Source: Escherichia phage GEP101 | Strand: one strand, 5' to 3' | Sequence record: PQ036202 | Length of the DNA: 64,000 nt | Shown here: positions 52,034 to 64,000 of the stretch, in pieces | Position numbering within the stretch: the first letter of the stretch is position 1 | Layout: every line of letters starts with the position of its first letter | Made by a program: the position numbers and the translations under genes | Notes under the pieces: generated by a model | What the model saw: only the letters and a program-made list of their open reading frames with translations | The model's database searches: none | What the model was told of the DNA's origin: nothing

Positions 52034-52755
52034 ATGATGGATATTAAAACAGAGAATGCGTGGTTAATGTTTGGTGACTGTCTGGAGCGCATGAAAGAAA
52101 TACCGGACGGTAGCGTGGATATGATTTTGTGTGATTTGCCGTATGGTACGACGCGGAATAAATGGGATTTAGTAATACCTTTCGATAAACTTTGGGCAGA
52201 GTATAAGCGGGTGTGTAGCGGCGCCGTGGTTCTCACTGCCGCGCAGCCCTTCACCTCCGCCCTTATAATGAGTAACCAAAAGGATTTCAAGTATACGTGG
52301 GTGTGGGATAAGGCTACAGCACCGGTTTTCTTAATGCTAAAAAGCAGCCCCTTCGCCAGACAGAAGATATTGTCGTTTTCGGTAAGGTTAAGACTTACAA
52401 TCCAATAATGGAAGTTAGGGGAAAGCCACGCAAGAAAGGAGGGCATAATAAGCCAGGAGGCTCTGATAACTACGGCCGGTTCGGTGACGCAGTTTCTGTC
52501 AATAACGAATATTACCCTACCAATCTGTTGCGCATATCCAACGCGGTGCGCAAGGGTAGGCTGCACCCTACACAGAAGCCAGTGGCCTTGATGGAATACC
52601 TTATCAAGACGTACACCAACGAAGGGGATGTGGTTCTTGATAACTGCATGGGCAGCGGTACAACTGGTGTGGCATGTCGCAACACAAACCGTAAATTCAT
52701 CGGTATTGAAATGGACCCGACTTATTACGGCATTGCGTGTGGGAGAATTTTATGA
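52034..52755 (+). pseudogene. beta-class N6A/N4C DNA methyltransferase, interrupted by a frameshift near 52312..52330
   Basis: Frame A (52034..52408) has DLPYG motif IV-like and VWDK; frame B (open from 52312 to 52755) has HPTQKP and VLDNCMGSGTTGVAC SAM-binding motif I. Confidence 0.65.
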
Positions 52756-52928
52756 CACCAACACTCCTCGAATGGCAACGTAAGCACGGTATCACGGCTG
52801 AGGCTCTGGCTGACCTTGTGACAAAACCAGTACCAGATGGCATAGGTAAATGTTCAGTGATTTATCACGTTGTAGACCCTGCAAAATGCAAATCTGCAAT
52901 GGCAGTAACAAACGTAACTTTTGATTGA
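52737..52928 (+). CDS. hypothetical protein
   Basis: 63-aa ORF overlapping methyltransferase 3-prime end. Confidence 0.3.
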   Translation: MWENFMTPTLLEWQRKHGITAEALADLVTKPVPDGIGKCSVIYHVVDPAKCKSAMAVTNVTFD

Positions 52929-52942
52929 GAGAGAGAGAAACT

Positions 52943-53824
52943 ATGAAAACATCTATCCGTGTTACAGTTCATTCACCAACTAAAGGGACTCATGAAGAAG
53001 AGTTTAACATCATCCAATTCCCTTCTGGTGAGATTGGTGGACACTTTTCACCAGAGTTTGTTGATTTTACTACCTATGCAGCATCATCTATCAACAATGT
53101 GATTATGATTGTAAAAGGCTATGATAAAGATATATTGTTTGCTGTGGCACTTGCTAAAGAGGCAGTGGACAACTTAGTACCTCATAAGTTTGCTATGAAG
53201 ACTGTTATCTTTTACTATTTACCAAATGCACGTTATGACCGTCACATGTTTAAAGGTGATGCAGCAGCTTTGAAAGTGTTTGCACAACAGGTTAATGCAA
53301 TGGGTTTTGATGCAGTCTGTGCAGTTGACCCTCACAGTTATGTGCCAGATAACCTGTTTAACTGCTTCCAGAGCATTCCTCAAAAGGAAATTGCAGTCCA
53401 CTATGCAAATGACCCACTGGTTGATTACTTAGTAGCCCCAGATGCAGGTGCTTCTAAGAAGATTGCAGAAACTGCTAAAGAAGTGGATAAACCATACATC
53501 ACAATGTCTAAAGTACGTAACCTTAAGACTGGTGAAATTACTGGTATGCGAATCCTTGATGATGTTGATTTGACCGATAAAACTGTTATGATTCTCGATG
53601 ATATCTGTGATGGTGGTCGAACCTTCATAGAAGCAGCTAAACATCTTCGTGAAGCAGGTGCAAAACGTGTGGAACTCTATGTAACTCATGGTATCTTCTC
53701 TAAAGGTGTTGAAAACTTACTTGACAATGGTATTGACCATATCTACACTACAAACTCTTTAGGGGAAGCTAAAGACCGTGGCTTAACACATTATGCCCAA
53801 GTTACTGTAGCAAACCTTGATTAA
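52943..53824 (+). CDS. ribose-phosphate pyrophosphokinase-like enzyme (Prs family; candidate NARP1 Adps)
   Basis: PRPP-binding-like motif VMILDDICDGGRTF; ATG 52943; immediately upstream of NAMPT homologue. Confidence 0.75.
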   Translation: MKTSIRVTVHSPTKGTHEEEFNIIQFPSGEIGGHFSPEFVDFTTYAASSINNVIMIVKGYDKDILFAVALAKEAVDNLVPHKFAMKTVIFYYLPNARYDRHMFKGDAAALKVFAQQVNAMGFDAVCAVDPHSYVPDNLFNCFQSIPQKEIAVHYANDPLVDYLVAPDAGASKKIAETAKEVDKPYITMSKVRNLKTGEITGMRILDDVDLTDKTVMILDDICDGGRTFIEAAKHLREAGAKRVELYVTHGIFSKGVENLLDNGIDHIYTTNSLGEAKDRGLTHYAQVTVANLD

Positions 53825-53831
53825 AACTTTA

Positions 53832-53854
53832 TAGGGGCTTTTAAGCCCCATTTT
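53832..53854 (+). terminator. hairpin with short T-run
   Basis: TAGGGGC-TTTTAA-GCCCCA followed by TTTT. Confidence 0.35.
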
Positions 53855-53869
53855 GAGAGAGATTAAAAG

Positions 53870-55651
53870 ATGACTAAATCACTTTATGCAGTGCCAGCAG
53901 GTTTAAACGCAGATGCTTACAAGGCATCACATATATATCAGTATCCAGATGCCACACAGTACCTTATGCTGAACCTGACACCACGTAGTGATAAATGGTT
54001 TAACAGTCCTTTAGCCATTGACGGTGTAGTTGCTTTTGGTATTCAACGTTTTGTTAAAGATTATTTAATAGACCACTGGAATGCCACCTTCTTTGAACGT
54101 GACAAAAAAGAAGCAATTGACGAAATCTTAGAAGTCATGAACGGTGTTCTGGGTAAAGATGCTATTGGTCGAGAACACTGGGAAGCACTACATGACTTAG
54201 GTTATCTACCAGTTGAAGTGTACGCTGTAGAAGAAGGCACAGTTGTACCTATGCGTGTACCAATGATTGTCTTCCAGAACACTGTTTCAGGTTTCCATTG
54301 GGTAGCTGGGTATCTGGAAGATGCTTTCTCTGCTGAGATTTGGAAGGCTTGTACCATTGCAACTATTGCATTGCACTACAAACGTATCTGTAAGAAGTGG
54401 TCTGACCTTACTTGTGACAATGACTTGCATTTGCCTTATCAGTGCCATGACTTTGCTATGCGTGGTATGTCTGGCTTTACTGATGACGCATTTAACGCTG
54501 TAGGCCACTTAACCAGCTTTAAAGGAACTGATAGCTTCCCTGCTGTATATACAGCTAAACGAATCTATGGACAGTCCTACCCAATCTCTGATATTGGCAG
54601 CTCTGTACCAGCCACTGAACACTCTGTAATGTGTGCAAACATTGCTTGGGAAGGTGGTAATGAGTTGATTGAAGAAGAAAGACGCTTTAAAGGTGAGTTA
54701 CAAACCTTCCGTCGTTTCTTAACAGAAACTTACCCAACTGGTATTGCAAGTGTTGTTTCAGACACTTATAATTTCTGGAGAACTGTATCAGAAATCTTAC
54801 CAGCACTTCGTAAAGAGATTATGGAACGTGATGGTAAACTGGTAATTCGTCCTGACTCTGGAGACCCTGTACATATTGTCACAGGTTATAAAGCAATCCA
54901 CTTAGAGTGTGCTAAAAAGGCTTATTACGAACACCTAAGCAAGCTGGAAGCCAGCGACACAAAGTTGAATGCTGTTCTGAACATGAATCTTGAAGACATT
55001 CACTATATTATGGCTGGGTGGTTACGTACAGAAGGCTATGAAATGGTGGTTGACAGAGAAGACTTTGAAGTAGCTGATACAGTGCTTCTGAAAGATGCCT
55101 ACATCAATGGCTCTGCAAACGTTGTAACACGTCCTGTAGCAGAGATTGATGGGGCTATTAAGACCCTGTATAACATCTTTGGAGGGACTATCAACTCTAA
55201 AGGCTTTAAGGTACTGGATGAGCACATTGGCCTTATCTATGGTGACTCTATCACGTTGGAACGTGCAAACGAAATCCTGAAGCGTTTGTATGAAATGGGT
55301 TTTGCAAGCTCTAACGTAGTGTTTGGTGTAGGTTCTTACACTTACCAGTACATGACTCGTGACACCTTTGCATTTGCTGTCAAAGCAACTCTTGCAAGCA
55401 TTGGTGGTAAAGAGATTATGCTTGCAAAAGACCCTAAAACAGATAGCGGTGTTAAGAAGTCTGCTTTTGGTGGTGTAGCACCTATGTGGGATGGTGATAA
55501 GCTGAAAGCTGTAGATGGCTATGGATTCCAGAGCTTTGCAGATGTGCTTGAACATCCAGCTTGTGCTTTACGTTTAATCTTTAGTGACTCTGAGCAGTTC
55601 GGTTACACAACTCTTGGTGATATTCGAAATAATATTGACAAGCAGCTTTAA
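53870..55651 (+). CDS. nicotinamide phosphoribosyltransferase family protein (candidate NARP1 Namat)
   Basis: DFAMRGMSG, SVPATEHSV, VVSDTYN, IRPDSGDP motifs characteristic of the NAMPT family. Confidence 0.85.
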   Translation: MTKSLYAVPAGLNADAYKASHIYQYPDATQYLMLNLTPRSDKWFNSPLAIDGVVAFGIQRFVKDYLIDHWNATFFERDKKEAIDEILEVMNGVLGKDAIGREHWEALHDLGYLPVEVYAVEEGTVVPMRVPMIVFQNTVSGFHWVAGYLEDAFSAEIWKACTIATIALHYKRICKKWSDLTCDNDLHLPYQCHDFAMRGMSGFTDDAFNAVGHLTSFKGTDSFPAVYTAKRIYGQSYPISDIGSSVPATEHSVMCANIAWEGGNELIEEERRFKGELQTFRRFLTETYPTGIASVVSDTYNFWRTVSEILPALRKEIMERDGKLVIRPDSGDPVHIVTGYKAIHLECAKKAYYEHLSKLEASDTKLNAVLNMNLEDIHYIMAGWLRTEGYEMVVDREDFEVADTVLLKDAYINGSANVVTRPVAEIDGAIKTLYNIFGGTINSKGFKVLDEHIGLIYGDSITLERANEILKRLYEMGFASSNVVFGVGSYTYQYMTRDTFAFAVKATLASIGGKEIMLAKDPKTDSGVKKSAFGGVAPMWDGDKLKAVDGYGFQSFADVLEHPACALRLIFSDSEQFGYTTLGDIRNNIDKQL

Positions 55652-58674: not shown

Positions 58675-59781
58675 ATGACTACTAAAACTAAAGCACAGAT
58701 TGACGCAGAAATTTACAAACTGGTTAAAGAAGGTAAGCTGACTAAAACAGCTATTGCACAGAAGTTCAATACTTCAACCCGTTCAGTTGGTCGTGCTGTA
58801 GAGCGTCATGAAGCAACCTTAAAAGGTAAGAAAAAGGTAGTTTCTAAACCAGCTACAAAGACTTTGAAACAAGTTGCCAAGACCTTTAAAAAGAAAGCTG
58901 ACAAACCAGTTGAAAAGGTTGTTAAAGACACTGTACAGAAAGCTCCAGTAAATAAACTGCATGAAGCTATGCAGAAAGATGACAAGATTGAGTACATGAT
59001 TACTGGTGACTCTGTAATTATGACTTATGGTTCAGAATCTGAAATTGTTGAGTCCACTCATCCGAACTATCAAGAGATTGTAGTTCATGTTGTGAAAGGT
59101 GAGTTCAAGAAAGCCTTTGAACTGATGAACATTCGTAAGTCTATCGAAAACTTCACTCAGGGTGCTATCACAATCAAAGGTGATAAGCTATTCTACGGTG
59201 CTGTTGAGATGCGTTCTACTCTGGTTGACCGTATCCTTCACATGATGAAGACTGGTGATAAAGGTTTTGAACGACTTGTAATGTTCTTCGAAAAACTGAT
59301 GGAAAACCCATCTAAAGGCTCTGTAGAACAACTGTGGGGATTCATATCTCACCTTGATGTTGAAATTGATGAAGAAGGTTACATTATCGGTTGGAAAAAG
59401 GTACAAAGTAAAGCTGACGGTTCTCTGGTAGACAGCCACACCCATAAAGTACCTAATGACTTGGGTAACCTAGTTGAGATGCCTCGTTGGATGGTTGATA
59501 ATGACCCTAACCGCACTTGCTCTCAGGGTTTACATGTTGGTGCATGGGGATATGTATCATGTTTTGGAGGTGATACCATTCTGAAAGTTCGTGTCCATCC
59601 ACGAGATGTTGTATCTGTTCCGACTGATTACAATGATATGAAGATGCGTGTATCAGCTTATGAGTCTTTTGCGATTGTTGACAGCAACCGTAAAGTTATC
59701 AAGGCTCACTCCGGCTCTGGTGGGTATCGTGTAGTGATTGGTTCTCACGGTGAGTTAATCTCCAAGACAGTACGCGTTTAA
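58675..59781 (+). CDS. hypothetical protein, possible rIIB-like partner
   Basis: Position immediately after rIIA-like gene; basic N-terminus; no motif verified. Confidence 0.35.
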   Translation: MTTKTKAQIDAEIYKLVKEGKLTKTAIAQKFNTSTRSVGRAVERHEATLKGKKKVVSKPATKTLKQVAKTFKKKADKPVEKVVKDTVQKAPVNKLHEAMQKDDKIEYMITGDSVIMTYGSESEIVESTHPNYQEIVVHVVKGEFKKAFELMNIRKSIENFTQGAITIKGDKLFYGAVEMRSTLVDRILHMMKTGDKGFERLVMFFEKLMENPSKGSVEQLWGFISHLDVEIDEEGYIIGWKKVQSKADGSLVDSHTHKVPNDLGNLVEMPRWMVDNDPNRTCSQGLHVGAWGYVSCFGGDTILKVRVHPRDVVSVPTDYNDMKMRVSAYESFAIVDSNRKVIKAHSGSGGYRVVIGSHGELISKTVRV

Positions 59782-59792
59782 TAGTTTACAAT

Positions 59793-59816
59793 AGGCTACT
59801 TCGGTAGCCTTTTTTG
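59793..59816 (+). terminator. rho-independent terminator (UUCG loop)
   Basis: AGGCTAC-TTCG-GTAGCCT followed by TTTTT. Confidence 0.55.
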
Positions 59817-59830
59817 ATATGGGAGGATGA

Positions 59831-60730
59831 ATGGCTAAAGCAGAACTTGATAAATACTACACACCAGATGAAGTAATAAGAGTGTGTGAATATAAGCTAC
59901 AAAAGGTCTTTAAAGGCTCTATTTCGTGCATTATAGACCCCTGTGCAGGTGACGGAAGATGGAAAGATTCTTTTAAGAGGGTTTGTCAAGATGTTGTGCT
60001 ATACGACATCGAACCAGACTCTGAGGATGTTAGTACAAGAGACTTCCTGAAAGATGACTTAGAGATTCCAGATAAACCTTTTGCGATTGTTACCAACCCT
60101 CCATTTGGTAAGGCAAATAGTCTGTCTACAAAGTTCTTTAACAAGGCTGCTACAATGAATCCAGACTACATTTGCTTCTTAGTTCCTATTAACTTTGGGA
60201 AGAAGAATCTTAGCAGACTTAGCAGAGAGTACACCTGCATTGACGAAGTAGAACTACCTAACCTTCATTTTGAAAGGATTGATGGAGTTACCTACTCAGC
60301 AAAAGAGTCGTCACTACGCTGTAACTTCCAAATCTGGAAGAGACAAAAGCGGACAGATGAAACTTGTAAGATTGTTCCTGTGATAGTTGATGGTGTAAGA
60401 GTCTATAAGCGTGAGAAATTCACACTATACAGGCCACCATGTCACAAGATTGATGGTAAAGAACAGCCAGTAGGTGTTTTAGGCAAACTGGATGGAAAAG
60501 ATTTGTTCACGATTATTACACATGGTCGTAAGGCTGGTACTGTGAAGGTCTTTGAACCAGATAAAGATAAGGTGTCTGTGAAACAATTTATCGAGCCTCA
60601 CATAGAAGGGCTTTACTCAGCAATCAAACAGGATTGGTTCGAAGATTTAAGAGATGGTTTTGCGCTGAGTTATGCAGGTTCGATAAATTCACAGGAAATC
60701 ATAGAAACCATAGAAAAACATTTGCATTAA
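59831..60730 (+). CDS. gamma-class N6-adenine DNA methyltransferase
   Basis: YYTPDEV, DPCAGDG (motif I) and NPPF (motif IV) in gamma order. Confidence 0.65.
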   Translation: MAKAELDKYYTPDEVIRVCEYKLQKVFKGSISCIIDPCAGDGRWKDSFKRVCQDVVLYDIEPDSEDVSTRDFLKDDLEIPDKPFAIVTNPPFGKANSLSTKFFNKAATMNPDYICFLVPINFGKKNLSRLSREYTCIDEVELPNLHFERIDGVTYSAKESSLRCNFQIWKRQKRTDETCKIVPVIVDGVRVYKREKFTLYRPPCHKIDGKEQPVGVLGKLDGKDLFTIITHGRKAGTVKVFEPDKDKVSVKQFIEPHIEGLYSAIKQDWFEDLRDGFALSYAGSINSQEIIETIEKHLH

Positions 60731-60785: not shown

Positions 60786-61625
60786 ATGAAATTCAAAGAG
60801 TTCCAGAGCAAAACACCTTGTAAGATTGATTTCGTTTGTGGTGTAGCCTCATTCTTCATGGGGTACATGGACTGGGCTAACTGTGCAAAACCTTACTCAG
60901 CAAACCGTAGCATCGAGCGACGTATTACAAAACCATATCTTAATGAAGACCTTCGTGAGGTGGATTTACGTTCCCGTGTTACGGGTGTACTGTTCAATGG
61001 AGAAGTTATCAACATTGATTCTCATGCTCGTGTAGAGAACTGGAAGAATGGTAAATTAGGTGCTCCCAAGAACGGCCTTGTCTATGTGACCCTGTTTGCT
61101 GTTAATTCACAGGAAGAAGTAGATTTCCTCTACGACCAAGAAAACTCACTGGACTCACGAGCTACGAATGGTGACCAAATTACAACTGCAATACTACGCT
61201 CTGGTTATAAGCCACAGACAGCGTTCACCAAGAAATTTACTGGTGCTGGTGTGTGGGCCTTATTAGGTCTCCGTGGATGCCTTGATGAAGCATTTGTACT
61301 CTATCAAGAAGAGCTTAAACTTATTGATGCACTTGGCATTGATAAGGATGAGATGGATAAGTACAAAGAGAAGACTGTAAATGGTGTTAAGCAGAAGTGT
61401 GAACTGCGTAAAAAGTACTCTGCTCCAATTATGGCAGCAATGCTTAAGAGCTTCAAAGAAAACCCTGAAAAGGCTACAAAGTTCTGGTTGGACTACCGTG
61501 ATGATGATGAGTCTGTAAGCAGCTTCTTAGATGCCATGAAGACCCAGTATGACCAGAATGGTGGTGTGTTTCAAGGTTATGTAATGTCACAAGCTGACGT
61601 TGCATTTAGAGCTTATAAGGACTGA
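60786..61625 (+). CDS. hypothetical protein
   Basis: 279-aa ORF. Confidence 0.35.
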   Translation: MKFKEFQSKTPCKIDFVCGVASFFMGYMDWANCAKPYSANRSIERRITKPYLNEDLREVDLRSRVTGVLFNGEVINIDSHARVENWKNGKLGAPKNGLVYVTLFAVNSQEEVDFLYDQENSLDSRATNGDQITTAILRSGYKPQTAFTKKFTGAGVWALLGLRGCLDEAFVLYQEELKLIDALGIDKDEMDKYKEKTVNGVKQKCELRKKYSAPIMAAMLKSFKENPEKATKFWLDYRDDDESVSSFLDAMKTQYDQNGGVFQGYVMSQADVAFRAYKD

Positions 61626-61860
61626 TATGCAAGTTAAAAAGATGATGGTAAGAGTTGCTCTCAAGTATCTGGGGGCAGCTACACAATACGAAGTAGCAGA
61701 GTACCTCTCTGCAAAGTTTGGTAAAAAATATCTCCCATCGGATTTTACACAGACTTTTATAGACTTAGAGAAGACGAAGACTATCACTAAGTTACCTGTT
61801 AAGCGTCGTAACTTTCGTAATGGGAAACCTACAGGTTTTGGGAACCTCTACGTAATGTAA
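61600..61860 (+). CDS. hypothetical protein
   Basis: 86-aa ORF. Confidence 0.3.
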   Translation: MHLELIRTDMQVKKMMVRVALKYLGAATQYEVAEYLSAKFGKKYLPSDFTQTFIDLEKTKTITKLPVKRRNFRNGKPTGFGNLYVM

Positions 61861-61863
61861 CTA

Positions 61864-61888
61864 AAAGGCTGCTTCGGCGGCCTTTTTT
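61864..61888 (+). terminator. rho-independent terminator (UUCG loop)
   Basis: AAAGGCTGC-TTCG-GCGGCCTTT followed by TTTTTT. Confidence 0.5.
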
Positions 61889-61949: not shown

Positions 61950-62498
61950 ATGAAGAAGTTGATTCTAGGTTTGTGCTTAATGTTTACAGCACACTTATCT
62001 TATGCAGTTGACTGCCCAGAGCTATCAATTAGCCAAAAAGTAAATATGTTAAAAGCTTACCAGTATGGTGAGAATAATATGGGTAAAGGGTGGGGCATCA
62101 CTCTAGCTGCTATAGCCTTACAAGAGTCAGAGTTAGGTCTGAATATGGAGAATAAAAAGACCCATGACTATGGTATCTTCCAGAATCACTTGAAGACTGT
62201 TGTAAAGCGTAACAAAATCAGTCCTAATGTGGCTAAAAAGAAACTCTTAAAAGATTTTGACTATGCTGCAAAGGAAACACACAAAGAGCTTGAGTTTTGG
62301 ACGAAGGTACATGGTCAACCAAAGTCAAAGAAGACTTTACAAAAAGTTTTAGCGTCATATAATGCTGGGTATTCGTACAAAATCCCTAAAGCTAAGAAAT
62401 ATTCTCAGGATGTCTATAACAATATGAAAGTTATCGCTCAATGTGAATTTGCAACAAACATTTCTAAGGTAAATCATGAAAAAATTAAGAAAGTTTGA
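61950..62498 (+). CDS. secreted lytic transglycosylase (SLT domain), candidate endolysin
   Basis: Signal peptide MKKLILGLCLMFTAHLSYA; SLT motifs ALQESELG, YGIFQ, ASYNAGYS. Confidence 0.6.
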   Translation: MKKLILGLCLMFTAHLSYAVDCPELSISQKVNMLKAYQYGENNMGKGWGITLAAIALQESELGLNMENKKTHDYGIFQNHLKTVVKRNKISPNVAKKKLLKDFDYAAKETHKELEFWTKVHGQPKSKKTLQKVLASYNAGYSYKIPKAKKYSQDVYNNMKVIAQCEFATNISKVNHEKIKKV

Positions 62499-63171
62499 TG
62501 AAGTACTGTGTCATGCTTATGACTTGCATCCTCATGAGTTAGGTCTTGATTCCTGTGTATGGACGTCAGAACAGTGCAGGGATTTTGAAGACACTGCAAG
62601 AGAAGTTGTATGTTCACTTGAAGAGTTCCACACATCAGAACCAATCGTGAACGTTGTGGACAAAGAGACTGGACAAACTGTAGGAGTGAGACGTGACAGT
62701 CTAGTCATAGTCAATAAAGACCTTGTAGAAAAAGGTAACCTCATCTTAGCAGATATTGATGGCGTTCTTACAAATTTTAATCACGAAGATTACTCCACAG
62801 AGTTGACTGACGGGTCATTTTCACAGTACACTAATCTTCTTGACTCTGTAAGAGCAAAACCAACATACATTTTCAATATCATTGATGCAATTGCTAATCA
62901 TGCTACTATCGGACTCTTGACAGCAAGAGGTGAAACTCAGAGAATACCTACTGAGATGTTCTTGAGGCACAATATAGAGCATGATTACATGCTTTTTATG
63001 CGTGGTTTTGGAACTAACTCTCTAAGTGCAGAAAGTTTAAAAGTGAGGATGATTCAGTCTTGCATTCTGCCTTACTTTAATATAGTATGTTTTATAGAAG
63101 ATACAGAGAAGAATGTTCAGAAGGTAAACAGAATCCTTCCACACATTAAAACCATGTTAGTTAAACATTGA
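62476..63171 (+). CDS. HAD-superfamily hydrolase (putative phosphatase/nucleotidase)
   Basis: LILADIDGVLTNF matches HAD motif I DxDG(T/V). Confidence 0.4.
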   Translation: MKKLRKFDEVLCHAYDLHPHELGLDSCVWTSEQCRDFEDTAREVVCSLEEFHTSEPIVNVVDKETGQTVGVRRDSLVIVNKDLVEKGNLILADIDGVLTNFNHEDYSTELTDGSFSQYTNLLDSVRAKPTYIFNIIDAIANHATIGLLTARGETQRIPTEMFLRHNIEHDYMLFMRGFGTNSLSAESLKVRMIQSCILPYFNIVCFIEDTEKNVQKVNRILPHIKTMLVKH

Positions 63172-63646: not shown

Positions 63647-63657
63647 GGTTAAGATAC

Positions 63658-63679
63658 AGGCTCCTTCGGGAGCCTTTTT
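63658..63679 (+). terminator. rho-independent terminator (UUCG loop)
   Basis: AGGCTCC-TTCG-GGAGCCT followed by TTTTT. Confidence 0.5.
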
Positions 63680-63698
63680 CATTTCAGGAGGTTGTTAA

Positions 63699-64000
63699 AT
63701 GACATTTAAAGAGTTCTGTCAAGCTACTTTCATAATTGTTTTCTTAGTTGGGGCAGGTGTCTGGGGAGGATACTCCTACAGAGACTACCAAGTTGCTGAA
63801 GCTGAGCTAAACAATGAGAAACTGATAAGTGTCGCTAAAGATGCTTATCAGGAAGGTTTAGTCACACTCAGCACCAATTACAAAAATGATTTGAAAGACG
63901 TGCTTGCTAAGAATAAGCATACAAAAGAGGTACTAACATATGAAAAAACTAAGCCAGAGTTTTATAATGTTTGTGTTACTGATAATTATGTCAGGGTGTT
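63699..64000 (+). CDS. membrane-anchored protein, 3-prime truncated at window edge (possible i-spanin-like)
   Basis: ATG 63699 with AGGAGG RBS; hydrophobic segment FIIVFLVGAGVWGG then charged helical region; runs off window. Confidence 0.35.
   Translation, partial: MTFKEFCQATFIIVFLVGAGVWGGYSYRDYQVAEAELNNEKLISVAKDAYQEGLVTLSTNYKNDLKDVLAKNKHTKEVLTYEKTKPEFYNVCVTDNYVRV

What the first reader, a model, noticed from the sequence alone, without database searches (positions are those of the whole stretch)
59831..60730. Second, intact DNA methyltransferase of a different class (gamma N6-adenine)
The motif order DPCAGDG (I) then NPPF (IV), with an N-terminal YYTPDEV, indicates a gamma-class N6A methyltransferase with no adjacent restriction endonuclease. 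Orphan phage methylases usually protect against host restriction. Together with the frameshifted beta-class enzyme at 52034 and the NAD+ module, the right-hand block looks enriched in counter-defence functions.
Basis: partly seen in the sequence, partly recalled or inferred. Interest (0 to 1): 0.45.

Follow-up and report, generated by a model that had tools for sequence, protein, structure and literature searches.

The report
Phage adenine methylase with conserved companion
The gene is a real, intact phage DNA adenine methyltransferase of an ordinary kind, but it is not a lone "orphan": it sits in a small three-gene accessory cassette next to an unannotated companion protein that, in related phages, is only ever found beside a DNA methylase.

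Summary
ORF 59831-60730 (+, 299 aa) carries YYTP, DPCAGDG and NPPF in gamma-class order. The motifs are invariant in 20 homologues, dN/dS is 0.115, and the fold model is confident (pLDDT 87). The catalytic core resembles both RNA and DNA amino-methyltransferases. Only gamma-class DNA adenine methylases (MmeI, CamA, M.TaqI, M.BseCI) also align over the C-terminal domain.

The window is a Felixounavirus. The gene is the first of a 2,073-bp cassette (299-aa methylase, 279-aa protein, 77-aa ORF). The cassette is bracketed by two copies of the rIIB terminator and occurs in only 9 of 273 matching phage records.

"Orphan" needs qualifying. Homologues of the 279-aa protein follow an unrelated Dam-type methylase in 14 other Felixounavirus records, and none was found without an adjacent methylase. 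It is the most constrained gene locally (dN/dS 0.027). In five other phage lineages the methylase's closest relatives are followed by a DG(Q/H)HR-motif protein.

Any ParB/DndB relationship of these companions rests on motifs only; every HMM and structure test failed.

Best reading: protective DNA m6A methylation assisted by a dedicated companion. This is a new variant of a known kind, of moderate interest.

The parts
59790..59815 (+). Left copy of the terminator hairpin (stem-loop 59793-59810 followed by a T-run), after rIIB. It marks the left boundary of the cassette.
   Evidence: Terminator scan. It forms a 26-nt direct repeat with 61863-61888 (85% identity, spacing 2073 nt). The cassette-free phage VpaE1 has a single copy here.
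59764..59792 (+). Weak sigma-70-like promoter match (AAGACA-17-TACAAT, 9 of 12) just upstream of the hairpin. It is the only candidate promoter before the methylase gene.
   Evidence: This is a consensus match only; function is not shown.
59831..60730 (+). Methyltransferase gene, 299 aa (end coordinate includes the stop codon); RBS GGGAGG at 59821-59826.
59831..60355 (+). Catalytic Rossmann-type domain (about residues 1-175). Motif X YYTP 59855-59866; motif I DPCAGDG 59936-59956; motif II D59 60005-60007; motif III D71-F72 60041-60046; motif IV NPPF 60095-60106; late invariant aromatic F166.
60356..60727 (+). C-terminal beta-rich domain (about residues 176-299), a putative target-recognition domain. 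It includes an insert of about 40 aa that is absent from the broader partner-less family.
60786..61625 (+). Companion gene, 279 aa, with no database annotation. It carries 'ANR' (residues 39-41) and 'INIDSHAR' (residues 75-82).
   Evidence: (phrog_2615, unknown function, E = 1.9e-7). Homologous to the 270-aa protein that follows a Dam-type methylase in SP116 and REP5 (E = 7e-13). dN/dS = 0.027.
61627..61860 (+). Third cassette ORF, 77 aa (ATG at 61627, one base after the companion's stop codon; an alternative TTG start at 61600 would give 86 aa). Function unknown.
   Evidence: Annotated as a 77-aa CDS in SEP1, ESCO56 and Tf. dN/dS = 0.14. No family hits.
61863..61888 (+). Right copy of the terminator hairpin, marking the right boundary of the cassette. 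From here the sequence is colinear with cassette-free VpaE1.

Best explanation
ORF 59831-60730 encodes a SAM-dependent amino-methyltransferase with gamma-class architecture: an N-terminal motif X, then motifs I, II, III and IV (NPPF) to VIII, then a C-terminal recognition domain. It most likely methylates adenine N6 in double-stranded phage DNA at a still-unknown sequence.

The gene is not solitary. It is the first gene of a 2,073-bp accessory cassette (methylase, 279-aa companion, 77-aa ORF). The cassette lies between two copies of the rIIB terminator in a minority of Felixounavirus genomes.

Proposed mechanism: early or middle in infection the methylase marks replicating phage DNA, so that progeny resist host restriction systems. 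The 279-aa companion acts together with it, most likely as an accessory factor that loads, activates or regulates the methylase on DNA. This would parallel phage ParB-methylase fusions and the ParB-like activator of phage thymine dioxygenases.

Shown here:
- The gene, its motifs and its fold.
- Purifying selection on all three cassette genes.
- The cassette structure.
- Strict co-occurrence of the companion family with methylases.

Inferred, not shown:
- DNA as the substrate.
- The anti-restriction role.
- The companion's role and fold.
For: Gene and enzyme class:
- ORF and motifs.
- Invariant SAM-binding and catalytic residues across 20 homologues.
- REBASE-derived Type II MTase HMM, E = 9.7e-23.
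- AlphaFold2 model: pLDDT 87.4, pTM 0.74.
- dN/dS = 0.115.

Cassette:
- VpaE1 goes from rIIB straight to the 182-aa gene.
- The terminator is duplicated at both cassette ends.
- 9 of 273 matching phage records carry the cassette.

Companion linkage:
- The same 9 records carry the 279-aa gene.
- A 26-27%-identical homologue (E = 7e-13) lies directly downstream of an unrelated D12/Dam-class methylase (PF02086, E = 2.4e-23). This holds in 14 of the 15 records that carry that methylase and in three metagenomic contigs.
- No copy was found without an adjacent methylase.
- The companion's dN/dS is 0.027, the lowest in the region.
- The methylase's closest relatives in five other phage lineages (L005/6, L007, L011, L013/15, L024) are each followed by one family of mutually homologous DG(Q/H)HR proteins.

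DNA rather than RNA as substrate:
- The companion family is shared with a bona fide Dam-type DNA methylase.
- The wider methylase family sits in replication and nucleotide-metabolism modules.

Precedents:
- ParB-fold/DNA-methylase fusions are enriched in phages (PMC12704722).
- A phage ParB-like protein activates its cognate DNA-modifying dioxygenase on dsDNA (PMC13229309).

Selective rationale:
- A cassette-free Felixounavirus, JohannRWettstein, is reported as remarkably sensitive to several RM systems (PMC8594841).
Against: - No methylation data exist for any cassette-bearing phage.
- The Pfam N6_Mtase score is marginal (21.1 vs 20.4 bits), and there is no NCBIfam hit.
- The best catalytic-domain matches, by both fold and sequence, are RNA m6A methylases: ErmC', PH1948, METTL5, KsgA and Ta1320.
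- The companion could not be assigned to any fold. There are no Pfam, NCBIfam, PADLOC or PDB-sequence hits, and the AlphaFold2 model failed (pLDDT 37).
- Homology between the window's companion family and the DG(Q/H)HR family is not demonstrated. hhalign gives E = 0.0041 with probability 8%, and reciprocal HMM searches against all local ORFs do not rank the partners first.
- The ParB-type motif is degenerate in the window's protein (DSHAR, not DGHHR or DGQHR).
- Co-occurrence counts are not phylogenetically independent. Within Felixounavirus they amount to two cassette types.
- One close relative of the methylase (L022) has no companion, and one lineage (L012/L023) has only the partner's N-terminal domain.
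- No strong promoter precedes the gene.
Confidence: 0.58

Rival explanations
1. True orphan anti-restriction methylase. The enzyme works alone to protect phage DNA. The 279-aa and 77-aa genes are unrelated passengers that merely share the cassette.
For: Neither neighbour has a recognisable nuclease or methylase-related domain. The broader family of about 265-aa relatives in Phapecoctavirus, Vequintavirus and Flaumdravirus has no such neighbour. One close relative (L022) lacks a companion. ESCO56 carries the Dam-type methylase without the companion.
Against: The companion family pairs with two unrelated methylase classes, at two different genomic slots, and was never found alone. Five other lineages pair the closest methylase relatives with a DG(Q/H)HR protein in the same position. 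The companion is the most strongly constrained gene in the neighbourhood.
Confidence: 0.12
2. A phage-borne restriction-modification-like or toxin-antidote pair. The companion is a ParB/Srx-fold nuclease, or another DNA-damaging protein, that attacks unmethylated DNA from the host chromosome or from competing phages. The methylase protects the phage's own genome.
For: The asymmetry matches R-M logic: a methylase can occur without the companion (ESCO56, L022, the broad family), but the companion never occurs without a methylase. The gene order is tight and the methylase class is exchangeable. ParB/Srx-fold proteins such as GmrS, Osa and ParB-like nucleases can have nuclease activity, and DGQ(Q/H)R is their signature motif (PMC4619093).
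Against: No known nuclease family matches, and the invariant residues include no PD-(D/E)xK or HNH-type pattern. The ParB fold itself is unconfirmed. An accessory factor that is useless on its own would give the same asymmetry. Published phage ParB-like partners of DNA-modifying enzymes act as activators, not nucleases (PMC13229309).
Confidence: 0.15
3. An RNA (or protein) methyltransferase of the METTL5, Erm, KsgA or HemK type. It would modify host or phage rRNA, tRNA or mRNA, or a protein glutamine, rather than DNA.
Against: RNA methylases align only with the catalytic core (143-171 residues), whereas DNA gamma-methylases also align over the C-terminal domain (235-247 residues). REBASE-derived Type II DNA methylase HMMs match at E = 1e-22 over residues 6-242. 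The companion family is shared with a Dam-type DNA methylase. Relatives lie between primase/helicase and DNA polymerase genes, or next to ribonucleotide reductase genes.
Confidence: 0.1

Closest known systems
Gamma-class Type II/IIG DNA N6-adenine methyltransferases (M.TaqI, M.BseCI, CamA, the methylase module of MmeI; Pfam N6_Mtase / Eco57I-type)
   Same: Motif order X-I-II-III-IV(NPPF)-VIII followed by a C-terminal recognition domain. Conserved SAM-binding residues. A two-domain structural alignment over 235-247 residues.
   Different: Much smaller (299 aa, against 382-751 residues for those solved chains). Sequence identity is only 13-15%. Pfam membership is borderline. There is no cognate endonuclease, and the specificity is unknown.
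'Putative DNA N6-adenine methyltransferase' of rV5-like (Vequintavirus), phAPEC8-like (Phapecoctavirus) and KIL-like (Flaumdravirus) phages (phrog_799 / phrog_5172)
   Same: Homologous catalytic domain: 28-34% identity over about 170-190 residues, E down to 2e-15. Both are phage-encoded.
   Different: Those proteins are about 265 aa, lack the insert of about 40 aa in the C-terminal half, are core genes of replication modules, and have no companion gene. None was found to be experimentally characterised.
Phage ParB-fold / DNA methyltransferase fusion proteins (ParB-CTPase fold fused to N6_N4_Mtase or Methyltransf_23)
   Same: A phage DNA methylase coupled to a protein that carries a ParB/DndB-type motif. 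The biological role is likewise proposed, not shown, to be anti-defence (PMC12704722).
   Different: Here the two are separate genes. The methylase is gamma-class (or Dam-class in the sister cassette) rather than beta-class. The ParB fold of the companion could not be confirmed by any HMM or structural test.
ParB-dependent phage thymine dioxygenases (5mYOX176 / ParB176)
   Same: A two-gene phage module in which a post-replicative DNA-modifying enzyme is encoded beside a cognate, separately encoded ParB-like protein that it needs on dsDNA (PMC13229309).
   Different: Different chemistry (oxidation versus methylation). That ParB is recognisably ParB-like with NBD and CTD domains. Dependence of this methylase on its companion is untested.
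DndB / DGQHR-domain and GmrS (DUF262) proteins of the ParB/Srx superfamily
   Same: A pentapeptide DG(Q/H)HR preceded by a (Q/N)R pair, seen in the companions of the methylase's relatives and as IDGHSR/NPRQR in the SP116 companion. These families are also associated with DNA-modification systems (PMC4619093).
   Different: There is no HMM-level match to these families. The window's own companion has a degenerate DSHAR. No HNH/DUF1524 partner domain is present.

Membership tests
Gamma-class N6-adenine DNA methyltransferase | Linear order of motifs: X, then I, II, III, IV ... VIII, with the target-recognition domain at the C-terminus | tested here: met
   YYTP (residues 9-12), DPCAGDG (36-42), D59, D71-F72, NPPF (89-92), F166, then a beta-rich domain at about 176-299.
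Gamma-class N6-adenine DNA methyltransferase | Motif IV (N/D)PP(Y/F/W), typical of exocyclic N6-adenine methylation (SPP(Y/F) is typical of N4-cytosine enzymes) | tested here: met
   NPPFG is invariant in 20 of 20 homologues. The motif-to-base rule comes from established knowledge, not from a test here.
Gamma-class N6-adenine DNA methyltransferase | Glycine-rich SAM-binding loop (motif I) plus the acidic residues of motifs II and III | tested here: met
   P37, A39, G40, G42, D59, D71 and F72 are invariant. They lie in confidently modelled Rossmann strands and loops.
Gamma-class N6-adenine DNA methyltransferase | Score above the curated Pfam threshold for N6_Mtase (PF02384) or a related model | tested here: inconclusive
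   21.1 bits against a cutoff of 20.4, covering only residues 55-100. Eco57I is below threshold in relatives. No NCBIfam hit. PADLOC MTase_II models do match strongly, at E = 9.7e-23.
Gamma-class N6-adenine DNA methyltransferase | Class I Rossmann methyltransferase fold with a TaqI-type second domain | tested here: met
Gamma-class N6-adenine DNA methyltransferase | SAM-dependent formation of m6A in DNA at a defined sequence | not testable with these tools
   Needs long-read methylation calling or a biochemical assay.
Orphan (solitary) methyltransferase | No functionally linked partner gene (endonuclease or otherwise) adjacent | tested here: not met
   No recognisable endonuclease is present. 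However, the adjacent 279-aa gene belongs to a family found only next to methylases: 9 of 9 gamma-type records, 14 of 15 Dam-type records, and 3 metagenomic contigs.
Type II restriction-modification system | Adjacent gene encoding a restriction endonuclease (PD-(D/E)xK, HNH, GIY-YIG, PLD or similar) | tested here: not met
   No nuclease family hit for the 279-aa or 77-aa proteins in Pfam, PHROGs, PADLOC or NCBIfam. The invariant residues show no such motif.
ParB/Srx superfamily (ParBc, DndB/DGQHR, DUF262), for the 279-aa companion | Significant HMM or profile match to a superfamily member | tested here: not met
   No hit in Pfam, NCBIfam or PDB sequences (only spurious hits to designed TIM barrels).
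ParB/Srx superfamily (ParBc, DndB/DGQHR, DUF262), for the 279-aa companion | Signature DG(Q/H)(Q/H)R motif with an upstream (Q/N)R pair | tested here: inconclusive
   The SP116 homologue has NPRQR followed about 35 aa later by IIDGHSR. The window has ANR followed about 36 aa later by INIDSHAR, with G changed to S. The motif definition is from PMC4619093.
ParB/Srx superfamily (ParBc, DndB/DGQHR, DUF262), for the 279-aa companion | ParB/Srx three-dimensional fold | tested here: inconclusive
   The AlphaFold2 model was unusable (pLDDT 37, pTM 0.28), so no fold search was run on it.
METTL5 / Erm / KsgA-type RNA m6A methyltransferase | Catalytic domain similarity plus family-specific architecture (single domain with a Trm112 partner, or an Erm/KsgA helical C-domain) | tested here: not met

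The most novel reading that the evidence does not exclude
Phages carry a previously undescribed two-component DNA-methylation module. A dedicated, rapidly diverging companion protein, possibly a cryptic ParB/DndB-type NTP switch, is obligatorily coupled to a methylase whose class is interchangeable (gamma-type here, Dam-type in sister phages). The companion would either license the methylase to act on double-stranded phage DNA, or act as a methylation-sensitive effector against unmethylated host or rival DNA.
Probability: 0.3. Interest if true: 0.65.

Novelty: new variant of a known kind. Interest (0 to 1): 0.42.

Why it matters
Taken alone, the methylase is an ordinary accessory anti-restriction candidate.

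The added value is the companion. Phage methylases are usually annotated and tested as stand-alone enzymes, and large phenotyping studies have found no simple link between methylase genes and restriction resistance (PMC8594841). If some phage methylases need, or are controlled by, a dedicated partner, heterologous tests of the methylase alone could mislead.

The Felixounavirus cassettes would also make a compact natural system for study: two methylase classes, one companion family, and isogenic-like cassette-free relatives. They could show how ParB-like or unknown-fold accessory proteins steer post-replicative DNA modification. Such a mechanism has so far been shown only for phage thymine dioxygenases (PMC13229309).

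Tried and rejected
1. Homology of the 279-aa companion to the DG(Q/H)HR partner family. BLASTP gave E = 0.18. hhalign gave probability 0.4%, rising to 8% with E = 0.0041 using a deeper profile. Reciprocal HMM searches against all ORFs of the loci did not rank the partners first. Result: not demonstrated, so they are reported as two companion families sharing a short motif.

2. The idea that the 77-aa ORF is the detached winged-helix N-terminal domain of those partners. The profile score was 2-3 bits, no better than random window ORFs. Rejected as unsupported.

3. Structure of the companion. The AlphaFold2 model on a 5-sequence alignment had pLDDT 37, so it was unusable and no fold search was run on it.

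4. ParB assignment through PDB sequence profiles. The only hits were spurious repeat matches to de novo designed TIM barrels. The DG(Q/H)HR family profile gave none.

5. Wide homology searches for the companion. Only 2 clusters were found, then 4 using a profile. The family is very narrow at this sensitivity.

6. tblastn of a DG(Q/H)HR partner against GenBank phages returned only unannotated mycobacteriophage proteins.

7. Base composition of the cassette is not distinct from its flanks, so there is no compositional evidence of recent foreign origin.

8. The afdb50 fold library was unavailable, and the viral library gave mostly unnamed hits.

9. The literature search found no experimental methylation data for this family. 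The Certrevirus ClaI result (PMC7344957) is confounded by the host's own Dam, and homology of that enzyme to this one was not verified.
Full report
**1. Observation**

A GGGAGG ribosome-binding site lies four bases upstream. The quoted motifs are present in the stated order: YYTPDEV (residues 9-15), DPCAGDG (36-42) and NPPF (89-92).

They are not chance strings. In an alignment of the protein with 19 homologues of 28-97% identity, the following are invariant: P37, A39, G40, G42 (motif I), D59 (motif II), D71-F72 (motif III), N89-P90-P91-F92-G93 (motif IV), and P119, F122, F166. K8-Y9-Y10-T11 is nearly invariant.

Database support is uneven:
- Pfam N6_Mtase only just passes its threshold (21.1 vs 20.4 bits, residues 55-100).
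- NCBIfam gives nothing.
- PHROGs gives phrog_5172 (unknown function, E = 1.8e-27) and phrog_799 (DNA methyltransferase, E = 2.5e-18).
- PADLOC's Type II methylase models match residues 6-242 at E = 9.7e-23.
- An exhaustive HMMER search of 1.84 billion cluster representatives finds 1,838 relatives at E <= 1e-3 and 575 at E <= 1e-10, but only 10 at E <= 1e-30.

**2. Genomic setting**

Only these 9 of 273 matching records contain the gene. The rest match in two pieces that skip it. In the cassette-free phage VpaE1, rIIB is followed directly by the 182-aa SLT-like gene.

In the window, three co-directional genes lie between them:
- the 299-aa methylase;
- a 279-aa ORF (60786-61625);
- a 77-aa ORF (61627-61860), which starts one base after the previous stop codon.

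The insert is bracketed by two copies of the rIIB terminator hairpin, at 59790-59815 and 61863-61888. They are 85% identical and 2,073 nt apart. From the right-hand copy onward, the sequence is colinear with VpaE1. Base composition is not distinctive.

A more diverged Felixounavirus-like contig (L004; rIIB 73% identical) has the same three genes in the same place. Comparison with it gives dN/dS of 0.115 for the methylase, 0.027 for the 279-aa gene and 0.14 for the 77-aa ORF, against 0.13-0.19 for flanking genes. All three are therefore real, constrained genes, and the 279-aa gene is the most constrained in the neighbourhood.

**3. What the enzyme is**

An AlphaFold2 model built on the 20-sequence alignment is confident (pLDDT 87.4, pTM 0.74). 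It shows a Rossmann-type domain (about residues 1-175) followed by a beta-rich domain (about 176-299) that is also modelled with high confidence.

For the catalytic core, the best matches are RNA adenine methylases:
- Type I HsdM subunits rank close behind.
- A sequence profile of the family has Ta1320 (METTL5-like) as its best solved relative (E = 0.0013), followed by HsdM proteins.

The core alone therefore does not separate DNA from RNA targets, and one GenBank record indeed calls the gene an rRNA methyltransferase.

Three observations favour DNA:
- RNA methylases align over only 143-171 residues. The gamma-class DNA adenine methylases MmeI, CamA, M.TaqI and M.BseCI align over 235-247 residues, so they also cover the second domain. 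That is where a TaqI-type recognition domain lies.
- The REBASE-derived Type II models cover residues 6-242.
- The companion gene described below is shared with a bona fide Dam-class DNA methylase.

NPPF rather than SPPY/F argues for N6-adenine over N4-cytosine; this rests on established motif knowledge. The sequence specificity cannot be inferred.

**4. The gene is not a lone orphan**

The 279-aa neighbour has no Pfam, NCBIfam or PADLOC hit. Its only match is phrog_2615, of unknown function. In a 5.8-billion-protein search it has only near-identical relatives.

tblastn against GenBank phages, however, finds a homologue of about 26% identity (270 aa; pairwise E = 7e-13) in other Felixounavirus genomes. 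There it lies directly downstream of a different methylase, a 294-aa D12/Dam-class enzyme (PF02086, E = 2.4e-23) with no detectable similarity to the window's enzyme. This second cassette sits in a different slot, between the 154-aa gene and the spanin. In the window that slot is empty: 63647-63700 holds only a terminator.

Co-occurrence counts:
- The gamma-type methylase is in 9 records, and all 9 have the 279-aa gene.
- The Dam-type methylase is in 15 records, and 14 of them have the 270-aa homologue adjacent. ESCO56 lacks it, it is split in Tf, and it is partial in ESCO45.
- Three metagenomic contigs show the same pairing.
- Tf has both cassettes, and the hit counts suggest EC106 does too.
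- No copy of the companion was found without an adjacent methylase.

**5. Closest relatives of the methylase in other phages**

I also examined the homologues that share the full length, including the C-terminal domain (E = 1e-32 to 1e-59).

In five lineages the next gene encodes one family of mutually homologous proteins of 346-462 aa (BLASTP E = 1e-9 to 1e-33). These lineages are an 84-kb phage (L005/6), a 275-kb jumbo phage (L007-10), and L011, L013/L015 and L024. Each protein carries a DG(Q/H)HR-type motif (EGQKR in L024) at the same position. The family corresponds to phrog_5931, of unknown function.

One lineage (L012/L023) keeps only that protein's N-terminal domain, and one (L022) has no such gene.

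By contrast, the broad family of about 265-aa relatives in Phapecoctavirus, Vequintavirus and Flaumdravirus is embedded in replication and nucleotide-metabolism modules without a companion. Those proteins also lack an insert of about 40 residues in the C-terminal half.

**6. What the companions are**

The DGQHR pentapeptide with an upstream QR pair is the published signature of the DndB/DGQHR branch of the ParB/Srx superfamily, and is related to DGQQR in GmrS/DUF262 (PMC4619093). The SP116 companion reads NPRQR ... IIDGHSR. The window's reads ANR ... INIDSHAR.

Beyond the motif, every formal test was negative or inconclusive:
- No Pfam, NCBIfam or PDB-sequence match for any companion.
- The AlphaFold2 model of the 279-aa protein failed (pLDDT 37).
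- hhalign between the two companion families reached only E = 0.0041 with probability 8%.
- Reciprocal HMM searches did not rank the partners first.

I therefore treat 'ParB/DndB-like' as a lead rather than a finding, and treat the two companion families as possibly analogous rather than demonstrably homologous.

**7. Mechanism**

The best-supported reading has two parts. The enzyme methylates adenine N6 in phage DNA and so protects progeny from host restriction. It works together with its companion.

Background supports a selective benefit: a cassette-free Felixounavirus is reported as remarkably sensitive to several RM systems (PMC8594841; its cassette-free status is).

For the companion, the closest precedents are:
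- ParB-fold/DNA-methylase fusions, which are enriched in phages (PMC12704722);
- a separately encoded phage ParB-like protein that activates its cognate thymine dioxygenase specifically on dsDNA (PMC13229309).

By analogy, the companion would load, activate or time the methylase.

An alternative is an R-M-like or toxin-antidote pair in which the companion damages unmethylated DNA. It fits the asymmetry that a methylase can occur alone while the companion never does. It lacks any nuclease signature, however.

Expression is unresolved. The gene starts 20 nt after a terminator, and only a weak promoter-like match (59764-59792) precedes it.

**8.

The split beta-class methylase is real. 52034-52408 carries DLPYG, and 52408-52755 matches the C-terminal part of PF01555 at E = 1.7e-24.

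The 'NAD+ module' (52925-53824 Prs-like; 53870-55651 NAMPT-like) has the PRPS-like plus NAMPT-like composition of the published NARP1 counter-defence pathway (PMC12774641, PMC13586617). With rIIA/rIIB and a PseT-type polynucleotide kinase nearby, describing this as a block rich in host-interaction genes is reasonable.

**9. Verdict**

The methylase itself is a new member of a known kind. Its recurrent coupling to an unannotated companion, across two methylase classes and several phage lineages, is a new variant of a known theme (ParB-associated DNA modification) and is worth an experiment. Interest is moderate.

Noticed in passing
window 52034-52755 (+): A beta-class N6/N4 DNA methylase split into two adjacent ORFs. 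The first (124 aa) carries DLPYG. The second (115 aa) carries MGSGTTG and matches the C-terminal part of PF01555 at E = 1.7e-24. The stop of the first overlaps the start of the second (TAATGG around 52406-52410). Whether this is a true frameshift, a sequencing error or a programmed event was not examined.
   Followed up: partly
window 52925-55651 (+): A PRPP-synthetase-like gene (299 aa; Pribosyltran and Pribosyl_synth) followed by a NAMPT-like gene (593 aa; NAPRTase and NAMPT_N). This matches the composition of the published phage NAD+ reconstitution pathway NARP1 (Adps plus Namat). Identity with Adps and Namat was not tested by sequence.
   Followed up: partly
window 63647-63700; compare L019 3491-5199 and L021 6501-8210: A second accessory slot, between the 154-aa gene and the Rz-like spanin, is empty in the window. 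In SP116, REP5, tootiki, Tf and others it holds a Dam-class methylase plus a 270-aa homologue of the window's 279-aa protein. Tf, and by hit counts EC106, carry both cassettes. ESCO56 has both methylases but only one companion.
   Followed up: yes
L001 (Salmonella phage SEP1) and L002 (ESCO56): Annotation errors in GenBank relatives. In SEP1 the rIIB homologue is labelled 'putative DNA N6-adenine methyltransferase', while the real methylase is 'hypothetical protein' and the rIIA homologue is labelled rIIB. ESCO56 labels the methylase 'ribosomal RNA large subunit methyltransferase'.
   Followed up: partly
hits H48, H54, H61, H77, H78, H97, H98 (records named 'Campylobacter phage' A112b, C11, A13b, A126, A132): Records labelled as Campylobacter jejuni phages contain sequences 97-98% identical to Felixounavirus genes, or similar to Vequintavirus genes, of enterobacterial phages. 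They have no annotation. These are likely mislabelled or mixed assemblies.
   Followed up: no
window 59793-59810 versus 61866-61885: The two terminator copies differ by paired changes in the stem (GCTAC...GTAGC versus GCTGC...GCGGC) that keep the hairpin intact. This suggests both copies are functional terminators rather than a decaying duplication.
   Followed up: partly
L013/L014 1124-2221 (-) and L015 389-2468 (-): In two metagenomic phage contigs that carry the methylase plus DGHHR-partner pair, the neighbourhood also holds an IS605 OrfB/TnpB (Cas12f-like) gene. In L015 there is a second, beta-class N6_N4 methylase next to a 450-aa unannotated gene and an HTH regulator.
   Followed up: no
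window 62476-63171 versus L004 7641-8330: The PseT-type polynucleotide kinase/phosphatase is far more diverged between the window and L004 (44% amino-acid identity, synonymous sites saturated) than its neighbours (65-90%). This suggests allelic replacement or fast evolution at this locus.
   Followed up: no
window 61627-61860 (+): The 77-aa third cassette ORF is conserved (dN/dS 0.14) and probably translationally coupled to the companion gene. It has no detectable relatives outside the cassette. By eye it resembles the N-terminal domain of the DG(Q/H)HR partners, but this was not statistically supported.
   Followed up: yes
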